Source: the human T2T-CHM13v2.0 reference genome, Homo sapiens
Assembly (NCBI RefSeq): GCF_009914755.1
Contig: NC_060928.1
DNA length: 64,000 nt
Direction: 5' to 3' (one strand)
The translations under genes were made by a program, and so were the position numbers. The notes beneath the pieces are model-generated. The model had not been told where the DNA came from. It did no database searches and worked only from the letters and a program-made list of their open reading frames with translations. Below, piece by piece: positions 8,241 to 36,116 of the stretch (within the stretch, counting starts at the first letter, position 1; each line of letters begins with the position of its first letter).

Positions 8241-9096
8241 ATTCAATTCTCATTATTCATAGTACTTAGGTCCTATAAAATTGGCATGAAAATGAATTAC
8301 GGAATACTAAACTGTTGCACCTATGGGAAATGTAGAGCTAGGTTCCTGTAAGCCTCTGGTCACATTTTCATCAACTGATCAACCCAACCTTGCTTTATAA
8401 TTGTTTCTGTTTAGGCACCTTATTAATATATTATCAAGTCATTAACATTGAATCCACAGCCAGCAGCCCTGTTACTCTTGCCCAAATAAAGCTGTTTAAT
8501 ACCTGTATTTTCTCTGTAAGGTGTATCACAGCCTTCTTGTATTTAGGAACACCAGACAGCATTTCAACACCATACTTGGGGGCCATTGTAAAAGACAAAT
8601 CACCAATAAAAAGCACAAAAATGAGAAAAATGTGGCCCCAAGTGTGGTATGGTAAATGCACTTGCTTATAGCATGAGAGCTGAAACAAGAGGCAGAAAGC
8701 AGCCTTGTCTGTCCTCAGCTGGGGACATGCTCACTGGGTGACTCACATTTTCACAGCTTAGTCGATGCACTGGTCTGAATGTTTGTGTCCCCACCTTTCC
8801 CAAATTTACCTCTTCGACCAGGTGAGGATACAACAAGAAGGCAGGCCCGCACTGGATCCTAAGTCTGCTGGTACCTTGAGCTTAACCATAACAGCATCCA
8901 GAACTGCGAAAGAAAAGAAATTCTGCTTACAAGCTATCCAGTTTATGGTATTTTGTTATAGAAGCCTGAGTGGACTAAGACACACGCTTCCTCAAATGAC
9001 TGTAAAATTGCTGCAAGTATTAATTTTGGAGTTACAAATCAATTTAAGCAAGTAGGCAAATCCACACATATGATCTGTGAATAATGAGACTAGTGG
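8241..9096 (+). mobile_element. MER82 (TcMar-Tigger) DNA transposon, split by an MLT1A LTR
   Basis: Matches recalled MER82 ('aggttcctgtaagcctctggtcac', 'cttgggggccatt', 'gagagctgaaacaaga', 'ttacaaatcaatttaagcaagtaggc'); ends 'ttctcattattca' and 'tgaataatgaga' are inverted. Confidence 0.85.
8766..8982 (+). mobile_element. Internally deleted MLT1A0-like MaLR LTR nested in MER82
   Basis: Starts 'tgcactggtctgaatgtttgtgtcccc', ends 'tatggtattttgttatagaagcctgagtggactaagaca'. Confidence 0.8.
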
Positions 9097-9655
9097 TAAA
9101 GACTTGAACTATATTAATGAATAGGACATAGTCTCTGTTTTCAATAAATTTATTCATATACCATATTTTTCTAAATTTATTCATATACTATATATGTTTT
9201 TCTCAAATGAGAAAACCATAGAGAAAAAAAGGAAAGCATTTAGTACTCCAGTTTTCATATATATATACACACACACACTAACATATATGTATATATTCAT
9301 TCATTCATACTGTTGTTGAAGGCCTCCAAGCTGAACATGGCCTCAGTCTCATCAGAACACAGACACCCTATAGCACGTAGCCCCTCAAATACATGGTGAC
9401 TATCATTTTAATTGAGAATAATGGTGGGAACTTTCAGAAATGTTCTGAAATTAGTCTAACGAATATGAGAGTAATTTAAGGAAGTTTTAATACTGCCAGT
9501 TGCAGTAAAAATAATTGAAAATTAAATTACATCCACAGGAAAATATGGAATACCTATTGAGACATCAACATTGGGAAAATTAGCATGCTGAAACAGAGCC
9601 AAAAAGAATAAACTATTTTCTCTCTGTAGGAATTGAAAACCCTCTGGTATTGGAC

Positions 9656-9902
9656 TGTATGCTGATGAGTCTAAGTTGGAATACTTCTGGTGTAACCACA
9701 TCCCGGGGGACCATTATGGGATACACTGTTGTTCTGACCCACCATATGCCACTCTTCTTGCCTGAGTCATTCTCTAGTATTTTTCTACAATGGAAGCATC
9801 TAGAATAATTTGATTGCTAAGGGAATTAACCTGCTCAGTGGTTCTTTACCTAAGCAACCTCTATAGAGCAGTGTCTTAGTAAGGTGGGTTAAAGATTGAC
9901 AG
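9656..9902. repeat. Left arm (A) of a long imperfect inverted repeat
   Basis: Aligns by eye to the reverse complement of 10610-10868; perfect blocks of 30 nt (9839-9868 / 10647-10676) and 23 nt (9685-9707 / 10819-10841). Confidence 0.95.
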
Positions 9903-9959
9903 GTCCACTGCTGAGGGTCACTATACTTACAAGAAGAAGAGAAACAAAGTTCCAGCATC

Positions 9960-10215
9960 CCCTTGCTACCTCCCTCAGTCTGCCTAAATTCCTTCATCAG
10001 TGCTATAATGGAACTCTTATATACCTCCTCTGTTGCAATTTTTATTTTTTTCTCCCTCTATACTGTACGTCACTGTCTATTGTCCACTTGCCTACTTTCC
10101 CATATATAAATAAATTCCTTGAAAACAGGGATGATGTTTTATTCATTTATGTAGTTTAAGTCTTTAGCACTGTGTTCAATATATTGAAAGTTCTCAAAGA
10201 CTTTTGTTAAATGAA
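9960..10215 (+). mobile_element. L2 3' end fragment in the inverted-repeat spacer
   Basis: 'taaattccttgaaaacagggatgatgttttattcattt..tagcactgtg..ttgttaaatgaa' resembles the L2 3' terminus. Confidence 0.6.
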
Positions 10216-10609
10216 GGACGGCGGAGATCTAAAAAGAATCAGAGATAGGGCCAGAGACGAAAAGATATGAAACCTTCCGTAATAATAGTCTGAGAGAAGC
10301 CCATGGCTGTCACACAGAGAGGAGAAAGAGAGCATCTGTTTCCATCGCTGTTGTAAAGTTGGCCTGCCCTCCTTTCCATCTCCTCTTCAATGATACCATC
10401 TTGACATCAATTTTTATTCAGAATAAGCATTACCTCTGCATCATTAGACTTACATGAAATTTGGTTTCTGAAATATCTGTTTTTATTCCCTTTCCTTGAT
10501 AGAGAGGATGAAGGCTAAGGGTGATGAAGTTTACTATACTCACCTGCTGATCATTATCACTAGTTTTACTCAAATCCAATAAGCCAAAATGGATACTTTT
10601 CTTAACCAG

Positions 10610-10868
10610 CTGTCAGTCTTTAAGATTGCCTCTGTAAGAGGCAACACTCTATAGAGGTTGCTTAGGTAAAGAACCATTGAATAGGTTAAGTCTTTTAGCA
10701 ATCAAATCATTCTAGATGATTCCATTGTAGAAAAATATCAGAGACTGACTCAGGCAAGATCATTTCAAGATGAGTGGCATATGACGGTTCAGGAGAACAG
10801 CGTATCCCGTAATGGTCTCCCGGGATGTGGTTACACCAGAAATATTTTAACATCCTCATCAGCATACA
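10610..10868. repeat. Right arm (B) of the long imperfect inverted repeat
   Basis: Reverse complement of 9656-9902 with scattered substitutions and an ~10-nt indel near 10760-10772. Confidence 0.95.
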
Positions 10869-12059
10869 ACCGAATAACCGAATACATTGGCACATAGGCT
10901 TCTCTTTTTCTAAAAGATGAAGACAAGCTTCTTCCTTTCTTTTATGAAGAGGGGATTCCTATTTCTATGAAGACCTGGTATATTGGACAAAAGAAATGTT
11001 TGCTCATATTTATTTTATAGAAAACACACTACAGCTTCTCTTTTTATACTGTACAAAATTTAGTCAAAAGTTTTATTGAGATGTTGAAAATGCTTAACAT
11101 AAAAATTTATGTAAAGAACTTGTTTTTCATTAACATCAATCCACTGTAAACAGTGAATAAATTATCTCATCTAAACAAAAGGAAATAATTGAAAATATAT
11201 GATTATGTAACTGCTCATGGTTCAGATGAAATTGCCTGATGAAAGTCAACTATTAGAGTGGCTTAAACATTTCGTCATAAGGATAAAATGGACACATCTG
11301 ATTTATGCTACTGTTCATAACAAATACATTATATTTCCAACTACGTGTTTTACATGATTTTCAAACTATATTTGTGGATAAATTTTGTGTCACTTGGTAA
11401 AAACAATTATACTGTCTTAAGTTTCTTCTTATTGGAAATGGAAGGAACTTTTTTTAATATCTGAGAAAGAAGAGACAAGATAAAAGAAAAGAGAGAAAAC
11501 AACCGGGGGGAAAAAAAAGCAGAGAAGGTAAGTGACTAGGATGCTTGATAGCCAGTGGTGGTGAGAACTCTCAGCTGGTTATGAAGCTGAAAGGACTTTT
11601 AGAAACAGAAACTGTAACTTTACATTGTTCACTCTCCAGTGTAGGATAGTACTATTCACCTGGACACCAACTGCTTTTCTGCTGGATTCTGTGAACGAAG
11701 TGTGTGAATGGATTCCTGTATGCATTTAGTTTAGCACTAAAACAAGACAAATTTGGAAAGTTTCTGAACTGATCATTAAGGAGTTAAACACCTTAAATTT
11801 TAACCAGCATATTCAATCTCAATATTAATAAAAAAAAGATTTAGATCACAGTAAATTACAAAGTGTGACTTAAGTTGACAGTTAAATGGCTAGTGTCATT
11901 CCTTCACAATTTCTAGTTTATCCAAATGTGTACATATATATCATACACATACGCTTTCACATAAACACACACACACATATTTTTGAAGTTATAAATTTCC
12001 TACTAAACTCTTCTTTAGATGTCTTTTAGAAAATTTTGTTATTTTATTTGTTCCGTTAA

Positions 12060-25469: not shown

Positions 25470-25731
<262 letters not shown>

Positions 25732-27039
25732 GACATGACATTTTATACGGCTATTGAAATGCAAAATTTTGCTACCTTGTATTTTTGTAAAACTGAAATT
25801 CACATTCAGAGCTAAGGTCGTGATACCTTGATTCAGCAGTTGAAAAATGGCGTGATTACAAATGAAAGCACAGGTCTACCCATGAAATGCCCAAAGTCCA
25901 GCCAATTCATTTCATGTAGGCACAAACTTATTGGACATAATTCCTTTTTAAAAAGGTTAACTTCAATGTAACCACTGAAAAGCTAAATTATGAATTATTT
26001 TATGTATATAACGGTTTTGTAGAATTTATTATTTTTCCATGCTTGACCTAACTTAATTCTACATAATAATGTAAAAGTTACCCTTGATTTTTGTTAGAAT
26101 ATGTGTCACTATCCAGTGAGGAAGCTTCTCAGTATGGGAAATGCTAAACATTTTATATTTAGTGTAGATGTAGTTATAATAGAAACCCCCCAAAATATTA
26201 TAACTTCTGGTTAAAATTAGAATTCAGAATATTTTTCTTATGTCCTAAGCAGCTTATACACAAATTCCATTGTTCACTCAAGGTGATGCCCCATAGAGTT
26301 GGCATGGTTTAATCTCACTAAATGTAGGTAGTGAAGAAAAAAAAAAGGGGGGCTCTTTTCATCTGATCACAACTAAAAACTAAGCCTAAATTCAAGTCAA
26401 GGATATGTGAGCTATCTAGTCTTATACCCAAACTCCCCACAATCCAAAACTGTTTGTTCAAATCTGACCCAAATTAAAGAAGATTGAGCAAAAAGGACAG
26501 TGAAAACTCAATCTATTTGCTCTTGTGACATGCGTTTGACTTATTTATCACTGCTGGGTCTACTGACTGAATTCACAAGAGAAATTAGAGCTCTTTGTAT
26601 TTTCTGCAGCAGACCAATTTAATATGCCAAAAGACTGTTCACTCTCATTTGCTTCCTCGACACCTGACAGACAACCGAGTAAAACTTTTTTTTATTTAAA
26701 TAAGGAACTAAGATCAAGAGTCTAATAGTTCTGAGTTCAATTCATAGACTTATTACTTGTTAGACTTAACCTGGGCGAAGCATTCCACTTGGGCTGACAT
26801 GTATAGAATGTAATAAGAATTGAATAGAGACTGTGTGGTAAATTCTTTGTGGGCAATGAAGACTAGCTGTTGGTAGATATTAGGGTCCCACCAAAAGAGA
26901 AATTCTGTCATAGGAGGCCACTGGAGTACTATAACAAATTAGTCAACCTCAACATCCTAGATAATTGGATTTCTGTTGCTTAGACTTGGTTGTTTTTACT
27001 TGTCAGCAATCATAATCATTCTATTAAATAATTATTTAT

Positions 27040-27326
<287 letters not shown>

Positions 27327-28842
27327 TTATTATTATTTAGATTTATAAAATAATACATGAAATTTAATGGTTGGTCTATTATCAGCATATTTATCCATCT
27401 AATCAATATTCTTCCAATTCTGTTTCACCCATTTTTTAATTAGTTTAGTTATTAAATCAATAAAAAGTATTACTGCAGAATGCAAAAACATGAATGATTC
27501 TCACAGGCAATATATTGAAGGAAAAAGCCAAACATATTATCATCAGATGATTCCATTCATACAAAGTTTGAGACTAGACAAAATTTAATTTGTAGTGTAA
27601 GAAAGCAGAATTGTTATTATCTCTGGGAAGGACCATGAAAGAATATTCTGGAATAATGTATATTTTGTGTAAGGTATTTCACCCATTTTAATAGTTCATA
27701 AATTTATATTAGAAAGGTCAGCATTTCTCTTGAGGAATATATGAATATAACAATCCACAATATTTTTTCATCTGAAAAAAAACCTCCATAGAGTAATAAT
27801 TGTCAAATTTTGCATTATTATCTCTAAAAAGTAATGTCATTCTTCTTTGAATTTTTCTCTACATTATTTGTACAGTGTTAGAGAAAGTGTCCTTGCAAAC
27901 TGTATTTATGAGTAACATATTAGTTCAGCCTGAGAACAAAAAATTAATAATGTCATAGGAAACCATTGGAGTACTATAATAGTGTACAGATTTCAACATT
28001 CCTTTTGCCCATCAATTTGTTTAAGATTTGAAGCAGCTTTGGGAAATAATATTTATATTTAATATAATATTAAAATTTTAACATAGTTGTTACTTTTATT
28101 GAGATTACTTTCCTCTAATAGTTATTTTGGAGTTGTCACCATTACAACATAACAATTTATAGGTTTTGCTTATAAATTTTAATTTTAACTTTAATACAAC
28201 CCTGTTTTTTGGGTAAAAATGTGATATTACTACAGTATCTACTCATTAAAGTTAATAATATAAGGCTAAAACTCTTTTTCAAAATAAACAACGTTTGTTT
28301 GCATACTTATTCCCATAAAAATGGATAAAAACAGAAATTCTTTACAAGTTATTTCAACAGGCACAAAACTATGAATAATTTCTCGAATAATTATTCCCTT
28401 CTAAAGAAGCAAAAAAAAAAAAACAAAAACAAATTTTCCTCCATGAGCTTTTCAAGTTTTGTGTGATTCATTCATAGTAAAATTTGCTTTACCCATTTGT
28501 TTTTTACAAAAGGCAAATCATTTAATGACACACATGAGTGGAATAATCAGTCAAAACTAAAATTTTTATGACCTTGAGATAAGAAAATAAACACCCTGTC
28601 ATTTTTCTTTTATTTTCGTCTTTTCTACTTTTAACAGCCATACAGAAGTCTAAACTTACCACAGAGAAAGGCTGCTCCCATGTTATTTTATAAAGATGCA
28701 GAATATTATATAATTCAGCTTGGTATTAACATATTGAAATTAATTATTCTTAAAGTTATCTTAGAAGCTGAATGTGAAGGTTCATTTTAAAAATAGAGAA
28801 TTTAATTGTATTATAAACTCAATATTTAATAATTAAAATAGC

Positions 28843-29136
<294 letters not shown>

Positions 29137-29289
29137 TTAAATAACCACACAACTAAAAATGTGATATAAAATAGAACAATGAATTGAGTGATCTCTTTTA
29201 AAAGACCACTTTGATACTTCACTAAAGTTTAGTAATATAATTAATAATTAAAATCTTAGAAAGTTGTTCTTACTTATTATAATAGCATG

Positions 29290-29606
29290 TTTTCTTTTTT
29301 TCTTTTTTCTTTTTTTTTTTTTTTTTTTGAGACAGAGTCTCGCTTTGTTGCCCAGGCTGGAATGCAGTGGCTGGATCTCCGCTCACTGCAAGCTCCGCCT
29401 CCCGGGTTCACGGCCATTCTGCCTCAGCCTGCCAAGTAGCTGGAACTACAGGCACCCACCACCACGCCTGGCTAATTTTTTGTATTTTTAGTAGAGATGG
29501 GGTTTCACCGTGTTAGCCAGGATGGTCTCGATCTCCTGACCTTGTGATCCACCCGCCTGGCCTCCCAAAGTGCTGGGATTACAGGCGTGAGCCACTGCAC
29601 CCGGCC
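29290..29606 (-). mobile_element. AluY
   Basis: 'gcaagctccgcctcccgggttcac', 'ccgtgttagccaggatggtctcgatc'; long T tail. Confidence 0.95.
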
Positions 29607-29969
29607 TATTTTTTTTCTTTAACAATAGTAAAATAGACTTTTTTCACCAAAGATGTTCTGTTTTAGAAAATAAGCAAAGCAAATAAAATTTAAATGATAA
29701 AATAAGAAAATAATTGAACCTGAAGGATAAGGGAAATTAGTTCTTTAACAGACATTCATAATCTTATATATAGTCTAATCTCACTAAAAATATTATCCTA
29801 TAGATTATTCCATCTTTCTACTCATTTTTCGAATTACTATTTTTATGATAATATAGTCATATAATTTTTCCAATTTTCTTATATTTCATTGATATATTGG
29901 TGCCTACTGGCAAATATATATATTTGAAAAAGAAATATAGATATCTAGATGTTTATATATAAATATGTA

Positions 29970-30285
29970 TTTTTTTCTTTCTTTCTTTCTTTTTTTTTTT
30001 TGGAAATGGATTCTCGCTCTATCACCCAGGCTAGAGTGCAGTGGCACAATCTCAGCTCACGGCAACCTCTGCCTCCCGGGTTCAAGCAATTATCATGCCT
30101 CAGCCTCCCCGAGTAGCTGGGATTACAGGCATGAGCCACCACACCTGGCTAACTTTTGTATTTTTAGTATAGACAGGGTTTCACCATGTTGGCCAGGCTG
30201 ATCTCAAACTCCTGACCTCAAGTGATCTGCCCGCCTCGGCCTCCCAAAGTGCTGAGATTACAGGCATGAGCCCCCACACCCAGCC
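29970..30285 (-). mobile_element. AluS (Sx/Sz-like)
   Basis: 'ccatgttggccaggctg..ctcaaactcctgacctcaagtgatc'; full dimer. Confidence 0.95.
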
Positions 30286-31328
30286 CTAGGAAATAGACAT
30301 GCTGTTTAATAAACATAACTTTATAATAATTTTGGCTATTTGGCACAGTTCATCTTTTTTTTTTCAAAATACCTGTGCTAATTCTGTGTCTATTTTTCCC
30401 AGATGAATATGACAGAACTTGTTTTATTTCTAATAAATCTGTTGAAATAGTGATTAAGATTCATTATCTGAGAACACCATTTAATCAGAAATTCTGTTAT
30501 TCTGTAAATTTTACAATTTTCAAAATATAAATATTAAGTATTTTGTGTTAAGATTATTGCTAGGTAGTTTTATTGGTCTGATAATTGAATTAGTTTTCTT
30601 TTGTGTAATTAACTTGGTTATTGCTAATGAATTTAAATTATACTTGTTTAATGTTTATTTTGCCACATACAAAAAGTCTTACTTTGTTCCTTCTCATAAT
30701 TTGACAGCAGCTTCTCTTGGATTTTAAATGTAGAAATCTGATAACTTCCTTTATAGTATCAATGTCTCTTCACTTTTTTAGGTCCCTAAAGTTACCTGAT
30801 TTTGTGTGCAAGACCCTCATAATGTTCTCTTTTTTATTAATACACAAAAATTGTACATAAATATGGGGCATGTGATATTTTGATATATGCACAAAATGTT
30901 TAATGATCAAATCCGAGTATTTGGGATATATATCACTTCAAAGATTTATCAATTCTTTGTGTTGGGAAGATTTAAATGGTTATCTTCTAGCTATTTTGAA
31001 ATATACAATACATTATTGTTAGTTATAGTAACCCTACTATACTATCGAACACTAGGACATCTTCCTTCTATCAGACTGTATGTTTGTACCCATTAACCAA
31101 CCTCTCCTCATCCCCTTCACCACCACCTTTCCCAGGCTGTGGTAACCATCATTCTACTCTCTATCTCCATGAGAACCACTTTTTTAGTTCCTGCATATAG
31201 TGAGAACATGAAATATTTGTCCCTCTGCACCTGGCTTATTTCACTTAACATAATGACCTCCAGTTCCATCCATGTTGCTTCCAAAGACAGGATTTTATTT
31301 CTTTTTATGACAGAATAGTATTTCATTT

Positions 31329-31395
<67 letters not shown>

Positions 31396-31477
31396 TATAT
31401 ATATATACACACATAAGTACATATACATATATATGCACATATGTATACATGTATACATACATACATATATACACATA

Positions 31478-31513
<36 letters not shown>

Positions 31514-35054: not shown

Positions 35055-36116
35055 TGACTGGGGACTTGTCTGATAGATCATAGGAAAAAATAAATACAAA
35101 TAACTTTAAAAAATCCTAATTTTAATTGCTAATACATTATTTCCAAAATACAGTCATGAGATTTATTTTTTCACTAGAAATGAGATAATGTCAAAATGTG
35201 ATATAATCTCAGAGTTAAATGAGATAATATTGTGATGCTCAGTATATGAGGAAAGGAACGTTCCTATACATTTTTTCCAAGTAATTACTTAATAACTCTC
35301 AAGATTACAACTTGTCATAATTATAATTACAATTAATATCACTTGAATTGATTTAGCAACTCAATTTTTAGGCATTATTTTACACATAGCATTGATCCCA
35401 TGGGCACACATGTAAAAATAGGTATTTATAATGTCATTCATTGAAATATATTTGTAGTAACAGAATATTATGAACAAATTTAATGTTCATCAACAGAAAA
35501 CTGATTTAATAATGTATATGTTCACGCAGTAGAATACTATGAAACAAAGAAAATAATGCAAACTAAAACAAATAGACAAAAATCGTGTGTCACTGCTGCC
35601 AGGGAGGTGAAAACTACTCCCAAGTATAATACCACATGAAAAAGCAACTTGTAGAACAAAGTCTGTGATGTATAGCACCTGGGATGGAAAGACAAAAGGA
35701 AAAGATAAATGATAATAGCTGGGCTAATACTCAAGCAAAGTCTCAATAATTTTTACCCCTATGGTAACAACTATGAAAATTTGAGTCCCAAGGGAAACAA
35801 GGCCAGTGGAAGGTTTACTGTTCAACAGATTAACACCTGTGTAGATTGAATTTTAATTTATCTTTGTGTATATTACCTATTCCAAAACAACTTAATAATT
35901 TTAAATACATTTACAACACGTGAACTTGCTTGACTTGACTTGAAACCAAATCTTAGTTAAATCCAAAGTAAGACTTGTTAATATGCTACTTTAATTTTAA
36001 AAATAATGTTTTCAAAACTCACTAAATCAAAACATTAATTTAGCAACATACTGTGTCACAGAAGTTTCTGTATGATTCATGAAATCAAAGCACTACATAG
36101 TAAAAATGTGCTTTGT

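What the first reader, a model, noticed from the sequence alone, without database searches (positions are those of the whole stretch)
9656..10868. ~250-bp inverted repeat matching no recognised repeat, able to form a long RNA hairpin
Seen: 9656-9902 is the reverse complement of 10610-10868 (roughly 80% identity by eye; perfect blocks of 30 and 23 nt; 707-nt spacer containing an L2 fragment). Neither arm resembles Alu, L1, MIR or an LTR I recognise. Of the core transition mismatches I counted about 10 that give G:U on a + transcript and 7 that give A:C, a weak bias. Established: long intramolecular dsRNA is the substrate for ADAR editing (editing-complementary sequences and editing-inducer elements) and for Dicer-derived endo-siRNA. 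Inference: either a selected dsRNA element in a host pre-mRNA or lncRNA, or the TIRs of an old low-copy DNA transposon or fold-back duplication.
Basis: partly seen in the sequence, partly recalled or inferred. Interest (0 to 1): 0.8.

Follow-up and report, generated by a model that had tools for sequence, protein, structure and literature searches.

The report
Old two-copy inverted duplication, gene desert
A roughly 265-base stretch of unique human DNA sits twice, in opposite orientation and 707 bases apart, in a gene desert on chromosome 4; it looks like an old, neutrally decaying local inverted duplication, not a known mobile element or a selected RNA hairpin.

Summary
The inverted repeat is real. 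Arms 9643-9902 and 10610-10885 are 83-85% identical on aligned bases (80% with gaps) and lie 707 nt apart. Its edges are sharp.

It is a two-copy sequence. In the whole T2T genome each arm finds only itself and its partner. A 30-mer identical in both arms has 2 places at up to 3 mismatches. nhmmer finds nothing else in 264 kb. That genome search misses relatives below about 80% identity, so an old, diverged family is not excluded.

- No target-site duplication of 6 nt or more.
- No Pfam match reaching a gathering score, no protein-level parent and no Rfam family.
- No sub-repeats in the arms.

Either strand folds into a hairpin of about 215-230 bp. The G:U excess on the + strand is not significant: 12 v 12, 15 v 11 or 17 v 9, depending on method. 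Transitions are not enriched. The hub's table shows no transcript over the region.

Best reading (0.6): a local inverted duplication about 40-100 Myr old, drifting neutrally. Rivals are orphan TIRs of a near-single-copy transposon (0.2) and a selected dsRNA element (0.07). Conservation, transcription, editing and small RNAs could not be tested here.

The parts
9643..9902 (+). Left arm of the inverted repeat (260 nt)
   Evidence: the only other place in the genome that matches is the right arm
9903..10609 (.). 707-nt spacer; unique in the genome at BLAST level; no significant symmetry just inside the arms
   Evidence: only itself found; tests only the 198-200 nt next to each arm; 77 of 300 shuffles reach the observed score
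10610..10885 (-). Right arm (reverse complement of the left arm). It carries an 11-12-nt insertion relative to the left arm and an 8-nt tandem duplication at its outer end
10868..10884 (+). AACCGAAT x2.1 tandem duplication at the outer edge of the right arm; it explains the ragged outer boundary
   Evidence: alignment
9960..10240 (+). Fragment in the spacer that resembles an L2 3' end (by recall only). Its core 10103-10182 is the inverted partner of 9081-9160
   Evidence: for the pairing; the L2 label comes from no call
9081..9160 (-). Second, interleaved inverted partner (X) of 10103-10182, 63/80 = 79%. It lies about 480 nt outside the main unit

Best explanation
This is a local inverted (fold-back type) duplication of about 265 bp of otherwise unique intergenic DNA. 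One copy was laid down in reverse orientation about 700 bp from the other, most likely by a replication template switch or by inverted-template repair of a break. Both copies have since drifted apart neutrally to about 15-17% mismatch plus a few indels. With recalled neutral rates of 1.0-2.2e-9 per site per year, that divergence corresponds to roughly 40-100 Myr.

The pair would form a 215-230-bp imperfect hairpin if either strand were transcribed. Nothing indicates that it is transcribed, or that the pairing is maintained by selection.

Shown: the repeat, its bounds, its two-copy status, the symmetric fold, and the lack of transposon hallmarks. Inferred: the mechanism of origin, the date, and neutrality.
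For: (1) Two copies only.
- Whole-genome DNA search with the left arm, the right arm and an 81-nt core each returns 2 of 2 scored candidates, the arm and its partner.
- A 30-mer identical in both arms has 1 forward and 1 reverse place at up to 3 mismatches, against 0/0 for the reversed control.
- nhmmer with each arm and with a two-arm profile finds nothing else significant in the window or in 264 kb. The only extra hit is 35751-35825 at E 0.02-0.08, found by the left arm alone.

(2) Copies of one transposon family of the same age would differ from each arm about as much as the arms differ from each other. The search did find the partner at 82%, so such copies should have surfaced (inference).

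(3) No transposon hallmarks.
- No flanking direct repeat of 6 nt or more, and none of 8-10 nt with up to 1 mismatch, among 441 boundary pairs. The best is 5 nt, where 0.43 are expected by chance.
- No Pfam match reaches its gathering score in 14 of 14 open frames. The four matches listed lie at E 0.0087-0.21, all below their cut-offs.
- No sub-repeats in the arms.

(4) The decay looks neutral.
- ts:tv is 24:14 or 26:18.
- There are 16 gap columns, including an 11-12-nt bulge.
- CpG is depleted: 1 and 5 observed against 11.0 and 10.5 expected in the two arms.
- 5 of 44 mismatches sit at a CpG.

(5) No strand preference in the full fold, -498.7 v -497.2 kcal/mol.

(6) The spacer holds what looks like an L2 relic (recalled). 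By recalled knowledge L2 is older than the arm divergence, so it is simpler to read it as pre-existing DNA between the two copies than as transposon cargo.

(7) Locally, 5 inverted pairs with arms of 150 nt or more exist in 264 kb. Four are multi-copy (depth 30-31) and only this one has depth 1.
Against: - The whole-genome DNA search needs long exact words. It missed the 79%/80-nt partner of the spacer fragment and returned only the query itself for the L2-like stretch. An old, diverged, low-copy family is therefore not excluded.
- A TA dinucleotide lies next to both ends (9649-9650 and 10875-10876, read), so a Tc1/mariner-type TA duplication cannot be ruled out.
- The longest perfect block (30 nt) is somewhat longer than uniform decay predicts, P = 0.025 by simulation.
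- The arms-only cofold is 18 kcal/mol more stable on the + strand and has more G:U pairs, 17 v 9.
- A second, interleaved inverted pair (9081-9160 / 10103-10182) does not fit one simple fold-back event.
- Neutrality is inferred from a single genome. No orthologues could be examined.
Confidence: 0.6

Rival explanations
1. The arms are the long terminal inverted repeats of a solitary or nearly single-copy non-autonomous DNA transposon of about 1.24 kb. Alternatively, they are two oppositely oriented insertions of one 265-bp element whose other copies are lost or too diverged to find.
For: - Discrete, sharply bounded arms.
- TA dinucleotides next to both ends (read).
- The arm divergence, K2P 0.17-0.20, falls in the era when DNA transposons were still active in primate ancestors (recalled: Pace and Feschotte 2007, not read here).
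- The genome search is blind below about 80% identity.
Against: - No other copy in 3.1 Gb at the level at which the partner arm is found, and none in 264 kb by nhmmer.
- No target-site duplication of 6 nt or more.
- No transposase remnant.
- The termini do not look like the hAT, Tc1/mariner or piggyBac ends I recall.
- The internal L2-like relic would have to be captured cargo.
- The partner of that relic lies outside the supposed element.
Confidence: 0.2
2. It is a selected dsRNA-forming element. An unannotated transcript crosses both arms and folds into a long hairpin that serves as an ADAR substrate or editing-inducer, as a Dicer substrate for endo-siRNAs, or as a structured lncRNA domain.
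For: - A very stable hairpin is predicted. The arms-only cofold is -355 kcal/mol against -138 +/- 4 for shuffled partners, with 230 pairs and a longest helix of 40.
- There is a slight + strand advantage, 17 v 9 G:U pairs and 18 kcal/mol.
- The 30-nt perfect block is a little longer than expected, P = 0.025.
- Chen et al. 2017 report that 7.8% of human intergenic inverted duplicates are expressed and argue that some act as hairpin RNAs (PMC5398296; abstract and sections 6 and 12 read, plus passages by term search).
Against: - No gene or transcript over the region in the hub's RefSeq table, and no Rfam family.
- The full-length fold is equal on both strands.
- Wobble counts are not significantly asymmetric (12 v 12, 15 v 11, 17 v 9).
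- Transitions are not enriched over transversions.
- There are 16 gap columns, including an 11-12-nt bulge.
- Any inverted duplicate of this age folds like this, so the fold itself is not evidence.
Confidence: 0.07
3. It is a complex event. One multi-step template-switching rearrangement, or two local inverted copy events close in time, created both interleaved inverted pairs, 9643-9902/10610-10885 and 9081-9160/10103-10182.
For: - The two pairs have similar identity, 79% against 80-85%.
- The X-to-Y and X'-to-Y' spacings are similar: 567 and 507 nt start to start, from the coordinates.
- Nothing else in 264 kb matches X or X' better than E 0.002, and an iterated profile finds no more copies.
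Against: - Both X and X' look like L2 3' ends with their own tails (recall). They may simply be two L2 copies of one subfamily.
- The stretches between the paired blocks show no similarity in either orientation.
- The similar spacing has roughly a 1-in-6 chance of arising by accident (my estimate).
Confidence: 0.15

Closest known systems
Intergenic inverted duplicates of mammalian genomes (Chen, Oliver, Zhang, Gao, Long 2017, PMC5398296; detected with Inverted Repeats Finder)
   Same: It meets their definition: two reverse-complementary arms of 10-10,000 nt with a spacer of 0-1,000 nt, in intergenic DNA (section 12 of the paper). It is also predicted to form a stable hairpin.
   Different: It lies in the extreme tail for arm length. 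The paper gives the 80th percentile of human arm length as 36 nt, while these arms are about 260 nt. Expression status is unknown here. The paper's supplementary lists could not be opened, so I cannot say whether this locus is in their set.
Non-autonomous DNA transposons with long terminal inverted repeats (MITE-like elements, MuDR/Ricksha-type long TIRs; names recalled)
   Same: Two inverted arms bracket a short non-coding interior, with discrete ends.
   Different: No other copies, no target-site duplication and no transposase trace.
Hairpin-RNA (hpRNA) endo-siRNA loci of Drosophila and mouse oocytes, and Alu-Alu inverted pairs that are the main human ADAR substrates (recalled; PMC10317233 seen in a search listing only)
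   Same: The geometry matches: arms of hundreds of nt with a loop under 1 kb, giving a long intramolecular duplex if transcribed.
   Different: Those loci are transcribed, and they are either near-perfect duplexes that target a gene or multi-copy Alu. Here there is no transcript, no target elsewhere in the genome and 15-20% mismatch.
Template-switch mutations that create reverse-complement copies (Loytynoja and Goldman 2017, PMC5453318; Monttinen and Loytynoja, 10.1101/2021.04.15.439925; abstracts in a search listing only)
   Same: This is the proposed mechanism of origin: a reverse-complement copy of nearby sequence made during replication.
   Different: As I recall them, the described events are tens of nt long and adjacent to their template. 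Here the copy is about 265 nt and lies 707 nt away.

Membership tests
Class II DNA transposon / MITE with TIRs | Multiple dispersed copies in the genome | tested here: not met
   Each arm finds 2 of 2 candidates, itself and its partner. The 30-mer at up to 3 mismatches has 2 places, control 0. nhmmer finds nothing else in 264 kb. Caveat: the search is blind below about 80% identity.
Class II DNA transposon / MITE with TIRs | Target-site duplication flanking the TIRs | tested here: not met
   No exact direct repeat of 6 nt or more, and none of 8-10 nt with up to 1 mismatch, over 441 boundary pairs. The best is 5 nt, at chance level. A 2-nt TA duplication cannot be judged.
Class II DNA transposon / MITE with TIRs | Terminal inverted repeats | tested here: met
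   Arms 9643-9902 / 10610-10885. This feature alone does not separate a transposon from an inverted duplication.
Class II DNA transposon / MITE with TIRs | Transposase remnant, or similarity to an autonomous partner | tested here: not met
   14 of 14 open frames of 40 aa or more have no Pfam match reaching its gathering score; the best is E 0.0087, below its cut-off. A six-frame genome search with the 58-aa arm frame finds only the two arms below E 0.1.
Intergenic inverted duplicate (Chen et al. 2017 definition) | Reverse-complementary arms of 10-10,000 nt, spacer of 0-1,000 nt, outside genes | tested here: met
   Arms of about 260 nt and a spacer of 707 nt. No gene lies over the region in the hub's table. 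The definition was read.
hpRNA / endo-siRNA or ADAR-substrate hairpin | Transcription through both arms on one strand | not testable with these tools
   No expression data are on hand. The hub's RefSeq table lists no transcript over 9643-10885.
hpRNA / endo-siRNA or ADAR-substrate hairpin | Small RNAs or A-to-I sites mapping to the arms | not testable with these tools
   No small-RNA or editing database is on hand.
hpRNA / endo-siRNA or ADAR-substrate hairpin | Pairing kept by selection (strand-specific wobble excess, compensatory changes) | tested here: inconclusive
   G:U on + v - is 12 v 12, 15 v 11 and 17 v 9, none significant. The full fold is -498.7 v -497.2 kcal/mol. Compensatory changes need orthologues, which are not available.
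Foldback (FB-type) element | Arms built of tandem sub-repeats | tested here: not met
   TRF finds only an 8-nt x2.1 duplication at the edge of one arm.
Any curated RNA family (Rfam 15, incl. miRNA precursors) | Covariance-model match | tested here: not met
   In 9000-11500 on both strands at E up to 1, the only match is a chance hit to a Yersinia sRNA at 11158-11278, E 0.86.

The most novel reading that the evidence does not exclude
An unannotated transcript in this gene desert crosses both arms. The resulting hairpin of about 230 bp is kept by selection as a unique, non-Alu, non-transposon dsRNA source in human: an ADAR substrate, a Dicer substrate or an innate-immune 'self' dsRNA. The slight + strand surplus of G:U pairs (17 v 9) and the over-long 30-nt perfect block (P = 0.025) would then be its faint traces.
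Probability: 0.06. Interest if true: 0.55.

Novelty: new member of a known kind. Interest (0 to 1): 0.18.

Why it matters
If it is what it appears to be, it matters little. It is one more neutral inverted duplicate, of a kind counted in the millions in the human genome, though unusually long-armed and not built from a known repeat at the sensitivity reached.

It has modest value as a clean, datable example of a medium-sized (about 265 bp) inverted copy placed 0.7 kb away. That size class lies between the short template-switch events described in print and large palindromes.

It would matter more only if transcription and conservation data showed a maintained hairpin. Long non-repeat intramolecular dsRNAs are, to my recollection, rare in human. 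No search was made here to support that statement.

Tried and rejected
- **Sensitive genome-wide search.** I built a sequence-only covariance model of the two arms (R1), but this genome does not accept RNA models. A second mismatch-tolerant pattern given by reference was not accepted.
- **Sensitivity controls for the genome DNA search.** The 707-nt spacer and a 106-nt piece of its L2-like core each returned only themselves. They missed the known 79% partner, so 'no other copy' holds only for relatives that share long exact words.
- **Coding origin rejected.** The 58-aa frame shared by both arms has no parent elsewhere (other hits at E 0.48 or worse). No Pfam match reaches a gathering score.
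- **Extension of the repeat rejected.** nhmmer alignments overhang to about 9604/10937, but the flanks alone score below shuffles, with 295 of 300 reaching the observed score.
- **L2 fragments.** I tried to grow a profile of L2 3' ends from the two L2-like fragments, to see whether they share derived states. No further members turned up in 264 kb after 5 rounds, so the question stays open.
- **Foldback element and Rfam families rejected**.
- **Literature search.** A search for the DNA-transposon history paper did not return it. What I say about transposon activity dates is recalled.

Full report
**The observation**

The repeat finder reports three collinear inverted blocks:
- 9756-9868/10647-10759, 113 nt, 90%
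- 9675-9760/10766-10851, 86 nt, 86%
- 9643-9669/10855-10881, 27 nt, 81%

A gapped local alignment joins them into 9648-9902 against 10610-10876, with 215 matches, 38 mismatches and 16 gap columns. That is 85% on aligned bases and 80% with gaps. blastn within the window gives 9643-9902 v 10610-10881, 79.6% over 274 columns, E 2e-58. A MAFFT alignment gives 214/258 = 83%.

The spacer is 707 nt. The perfect blocks of 30 and 23 nt are there. The edges are sharp: the 200 nt outside each arm align no better than shuffles, with 295 of 300 reaching the observed score. The apparent overhang in nhmmer alignments is therefore not real. An 8-nt tandem duplication at 10868-10884 makes the right outer edge ragged.

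**Copy number**

The window's own assembly (T2T-CHM13, 3.1 Gb) can be searched.
- The left arm, the right arm and an 81-nt core each return exactly two scored candidates, the query and the partner arm, at 82-90% identity.
- A 30-mer identical in both arms, and so presumably ancestral to the pair, has one forward and one reverse place at up to 3 mismatches. The reversed control has none.
- nhmmer with each arm and with a two-arm profile finds nothing else at E < 0.01 in the window or in 264 kb, meaning the window plus 100 kb on each side.
- In that 264 kb there are 5 local inverted pairs with arms of 150 nt or more. Four are built from a multi-copy repeat (depth 30-31) and only this pair has depth 1.

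The limit of this evidence must be stated. The genome DNA search depends on long exact words. With the spacer, or with its L2-like core, it returned only the query and missed a known 79%/80-nt partner 1 kb away. A more sensitive model search of the genome was not accepted. What is shown is that no family of comparable age exists. An old, strongly diverged, low-copy family is not excluded.

**Is it a transposon?**

For an element with TIRs, the two arms of one copy diverge from each other about as fast as different copies of the family do. A family that left arms 83-85% alike should have left other copies in the range where the partner arm itself was found. None exists.

Other hallmarks are also absent:
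- No flanking direct repeat of 6 nt or more, and none of 8-10 nt with one mismatch, among 441 boundary combinations. The best, 5 nt, is at chance level.
- No transposase trace. 14 of 14 open frames have no Pfam match reaching its gathering score (the four listed matches lie at E 0.0087-0.21, below their cut-offs). A six-frame genome search with the frame shared by the arms finds only the arms.
- No sub-repeats as in foldback elements.

A TA next to each end leaves a Tc1/mariner-type duplication formally possible.

The spacer carries what I recall as an L2 3' end (9960-10240); this label comes from no tool. By recalled knowledge L2 is older than the arm divergence, so it is more simply pre-existing DNA between two copies than cargo.

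**Is it a selected RNA hairpin?**

Either strand folds so that the arms pair: -498.7 kcal/mol for + and -497.2 for - over 9640-10885.

| Arms alone | + strand | - strand |
|---|---|---|
| Cofold energy (kcal/mol) | -355.4 | -337.3 |
| Inter-arm pairs | 230 | 214 |
| G:U pairs | 17 | 9 |
| Longest helix | 40 | 31 |
| Shuffled partners (kcal/mol) | about -138 | about -133 |

Any inverted duplicate of this identity folds like this, so the fold is a consequence of the repeat and not evidence of function.

Transition mismatches that leave G:U on + versus on - number 12 v 12 (table), 15 v 11 or 17 v 9. My binomial for the last is about 0.17, two-sided. Transitions are not enriched, at 24:14 or 26:18. 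There are 16 gap columns, including an 11-12-nt bulge. CpG is depleted as in surrounding DNA.

The one mild oddity is that a 30-nt perfect run is longer than uniform decay predicts, P = 0.025. No Rfam family matches. The hub's table shows no transcript over the region; the nearest lncRNAs are about 44 and 53 kb away.

**Most likely history**

K2P distance between the arms is 0.17 (by hand from the counts) to 0.20. With recalled neutral rates of 1.0-2.2e-9 per site per year, this gives about 40-100 Myr (for the arithmetic). That is a minimum if the arms ever exchanged sequence by gene conversion.

I read it as a local inverted duplication of unique DNA, made by a template switch to the opposite strand during replication or by break repair, and neutral since. 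Template-switch copying is described in print for shorter, adjacent events (PMC5453318 and 10.1101/2021.04.15.439925; abstracts in the listing only).

The general class is known. Chen et al. 2017 count 4.3 million inverted duplicates in human, 1.9 million of them intergenic. Their definition is arms of 10-10,000 nt with a spacer up to 1,000 nt. The 80th percentile of arm length is 36 nt, and 7.8% are expressed (PMC5398296; abstract, sections 6 and 12 and term passages read). This locus fits that definition and sits far out in the arm-length tail.

**An unexplained detail**

A second inverted pair is interleaved with the first: 9081-9160 v 10103-10182, 63/80 identical, nhmmer E 3e-8. One member lies in the spacer and the other about 480 nt outside the unit. 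The order X, Y, X', Y', with both primed copies inverted, cannot come from one simple fold-back.

Nothing else in 264 kb matches either member better than E 0.002, and an iterated profile gains no members. They may be two L2 copies of one subfamily, or a second local inverted copy of similar age. If the latter, it would favour a complex template-switch event and count further against a transposon.

**What could not be done**

- Repeat-library annotation.
- Orthologue alignment: no other eukaryote genome is held.
- Expression, editing, small-RNA and duplex-mapping data.

These are the decisive tests and are listed under next steps.

**Verdict**

The repeat is real and not a chance match, and it is not a recognised multi-copy repeat. 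It is probably an old neutral inverted duplication. It is a new member of a known kind and of low interest unless transcription and conservation data say otherwise.

Noticed in passing
window 9081-9160 and 10103-10182: A second inverted pair (79% over 80 nt) is interleaved with the main one. One member lies outside the main unit and one lies in its spacer. Both look like L2 3' ends by recall. Nothing else in 264 kb matches them comparably.
   Followed up: partly
window 9145-9193: Direct 22-nt repeat at 27-nt spacing (TAAATTTATTCATATAC[C/T]ATAT), next to the upstream L2-like fragment. It is a small tandem duplication.
   Followed up: no
window 9257-9310: A stretch that matches several places around 31306-31506 on both strands at 78-88%. 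From the alignment it reads as a (TG)n/(TA)n-type simple repeat.
   Followed up: no
window 10868-10884: Perfect 8-nt tandem duplication AACCGAAT x2.1, exactly at the outer edge of the right arm.
   Followed up: partly
window 25478-30272 and 115197-117433 (the latter outside the window, in L021-L022): Four local inverted pairs of a multi-copy element of about 250-330 nt (depth about 30 in 264 kb), presumably Alu pairs. Inside the window they coincide with stretches the hub lists as masked.
   Followed up: no
window 35751-35825: Weak nhmmer match (E 0.02-0.08) to positions 141-218 of the left arm only. It is not found by the right arm or by the two-arm profile, so it is probably chance in AT-rich sequence.
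   Followed up: no
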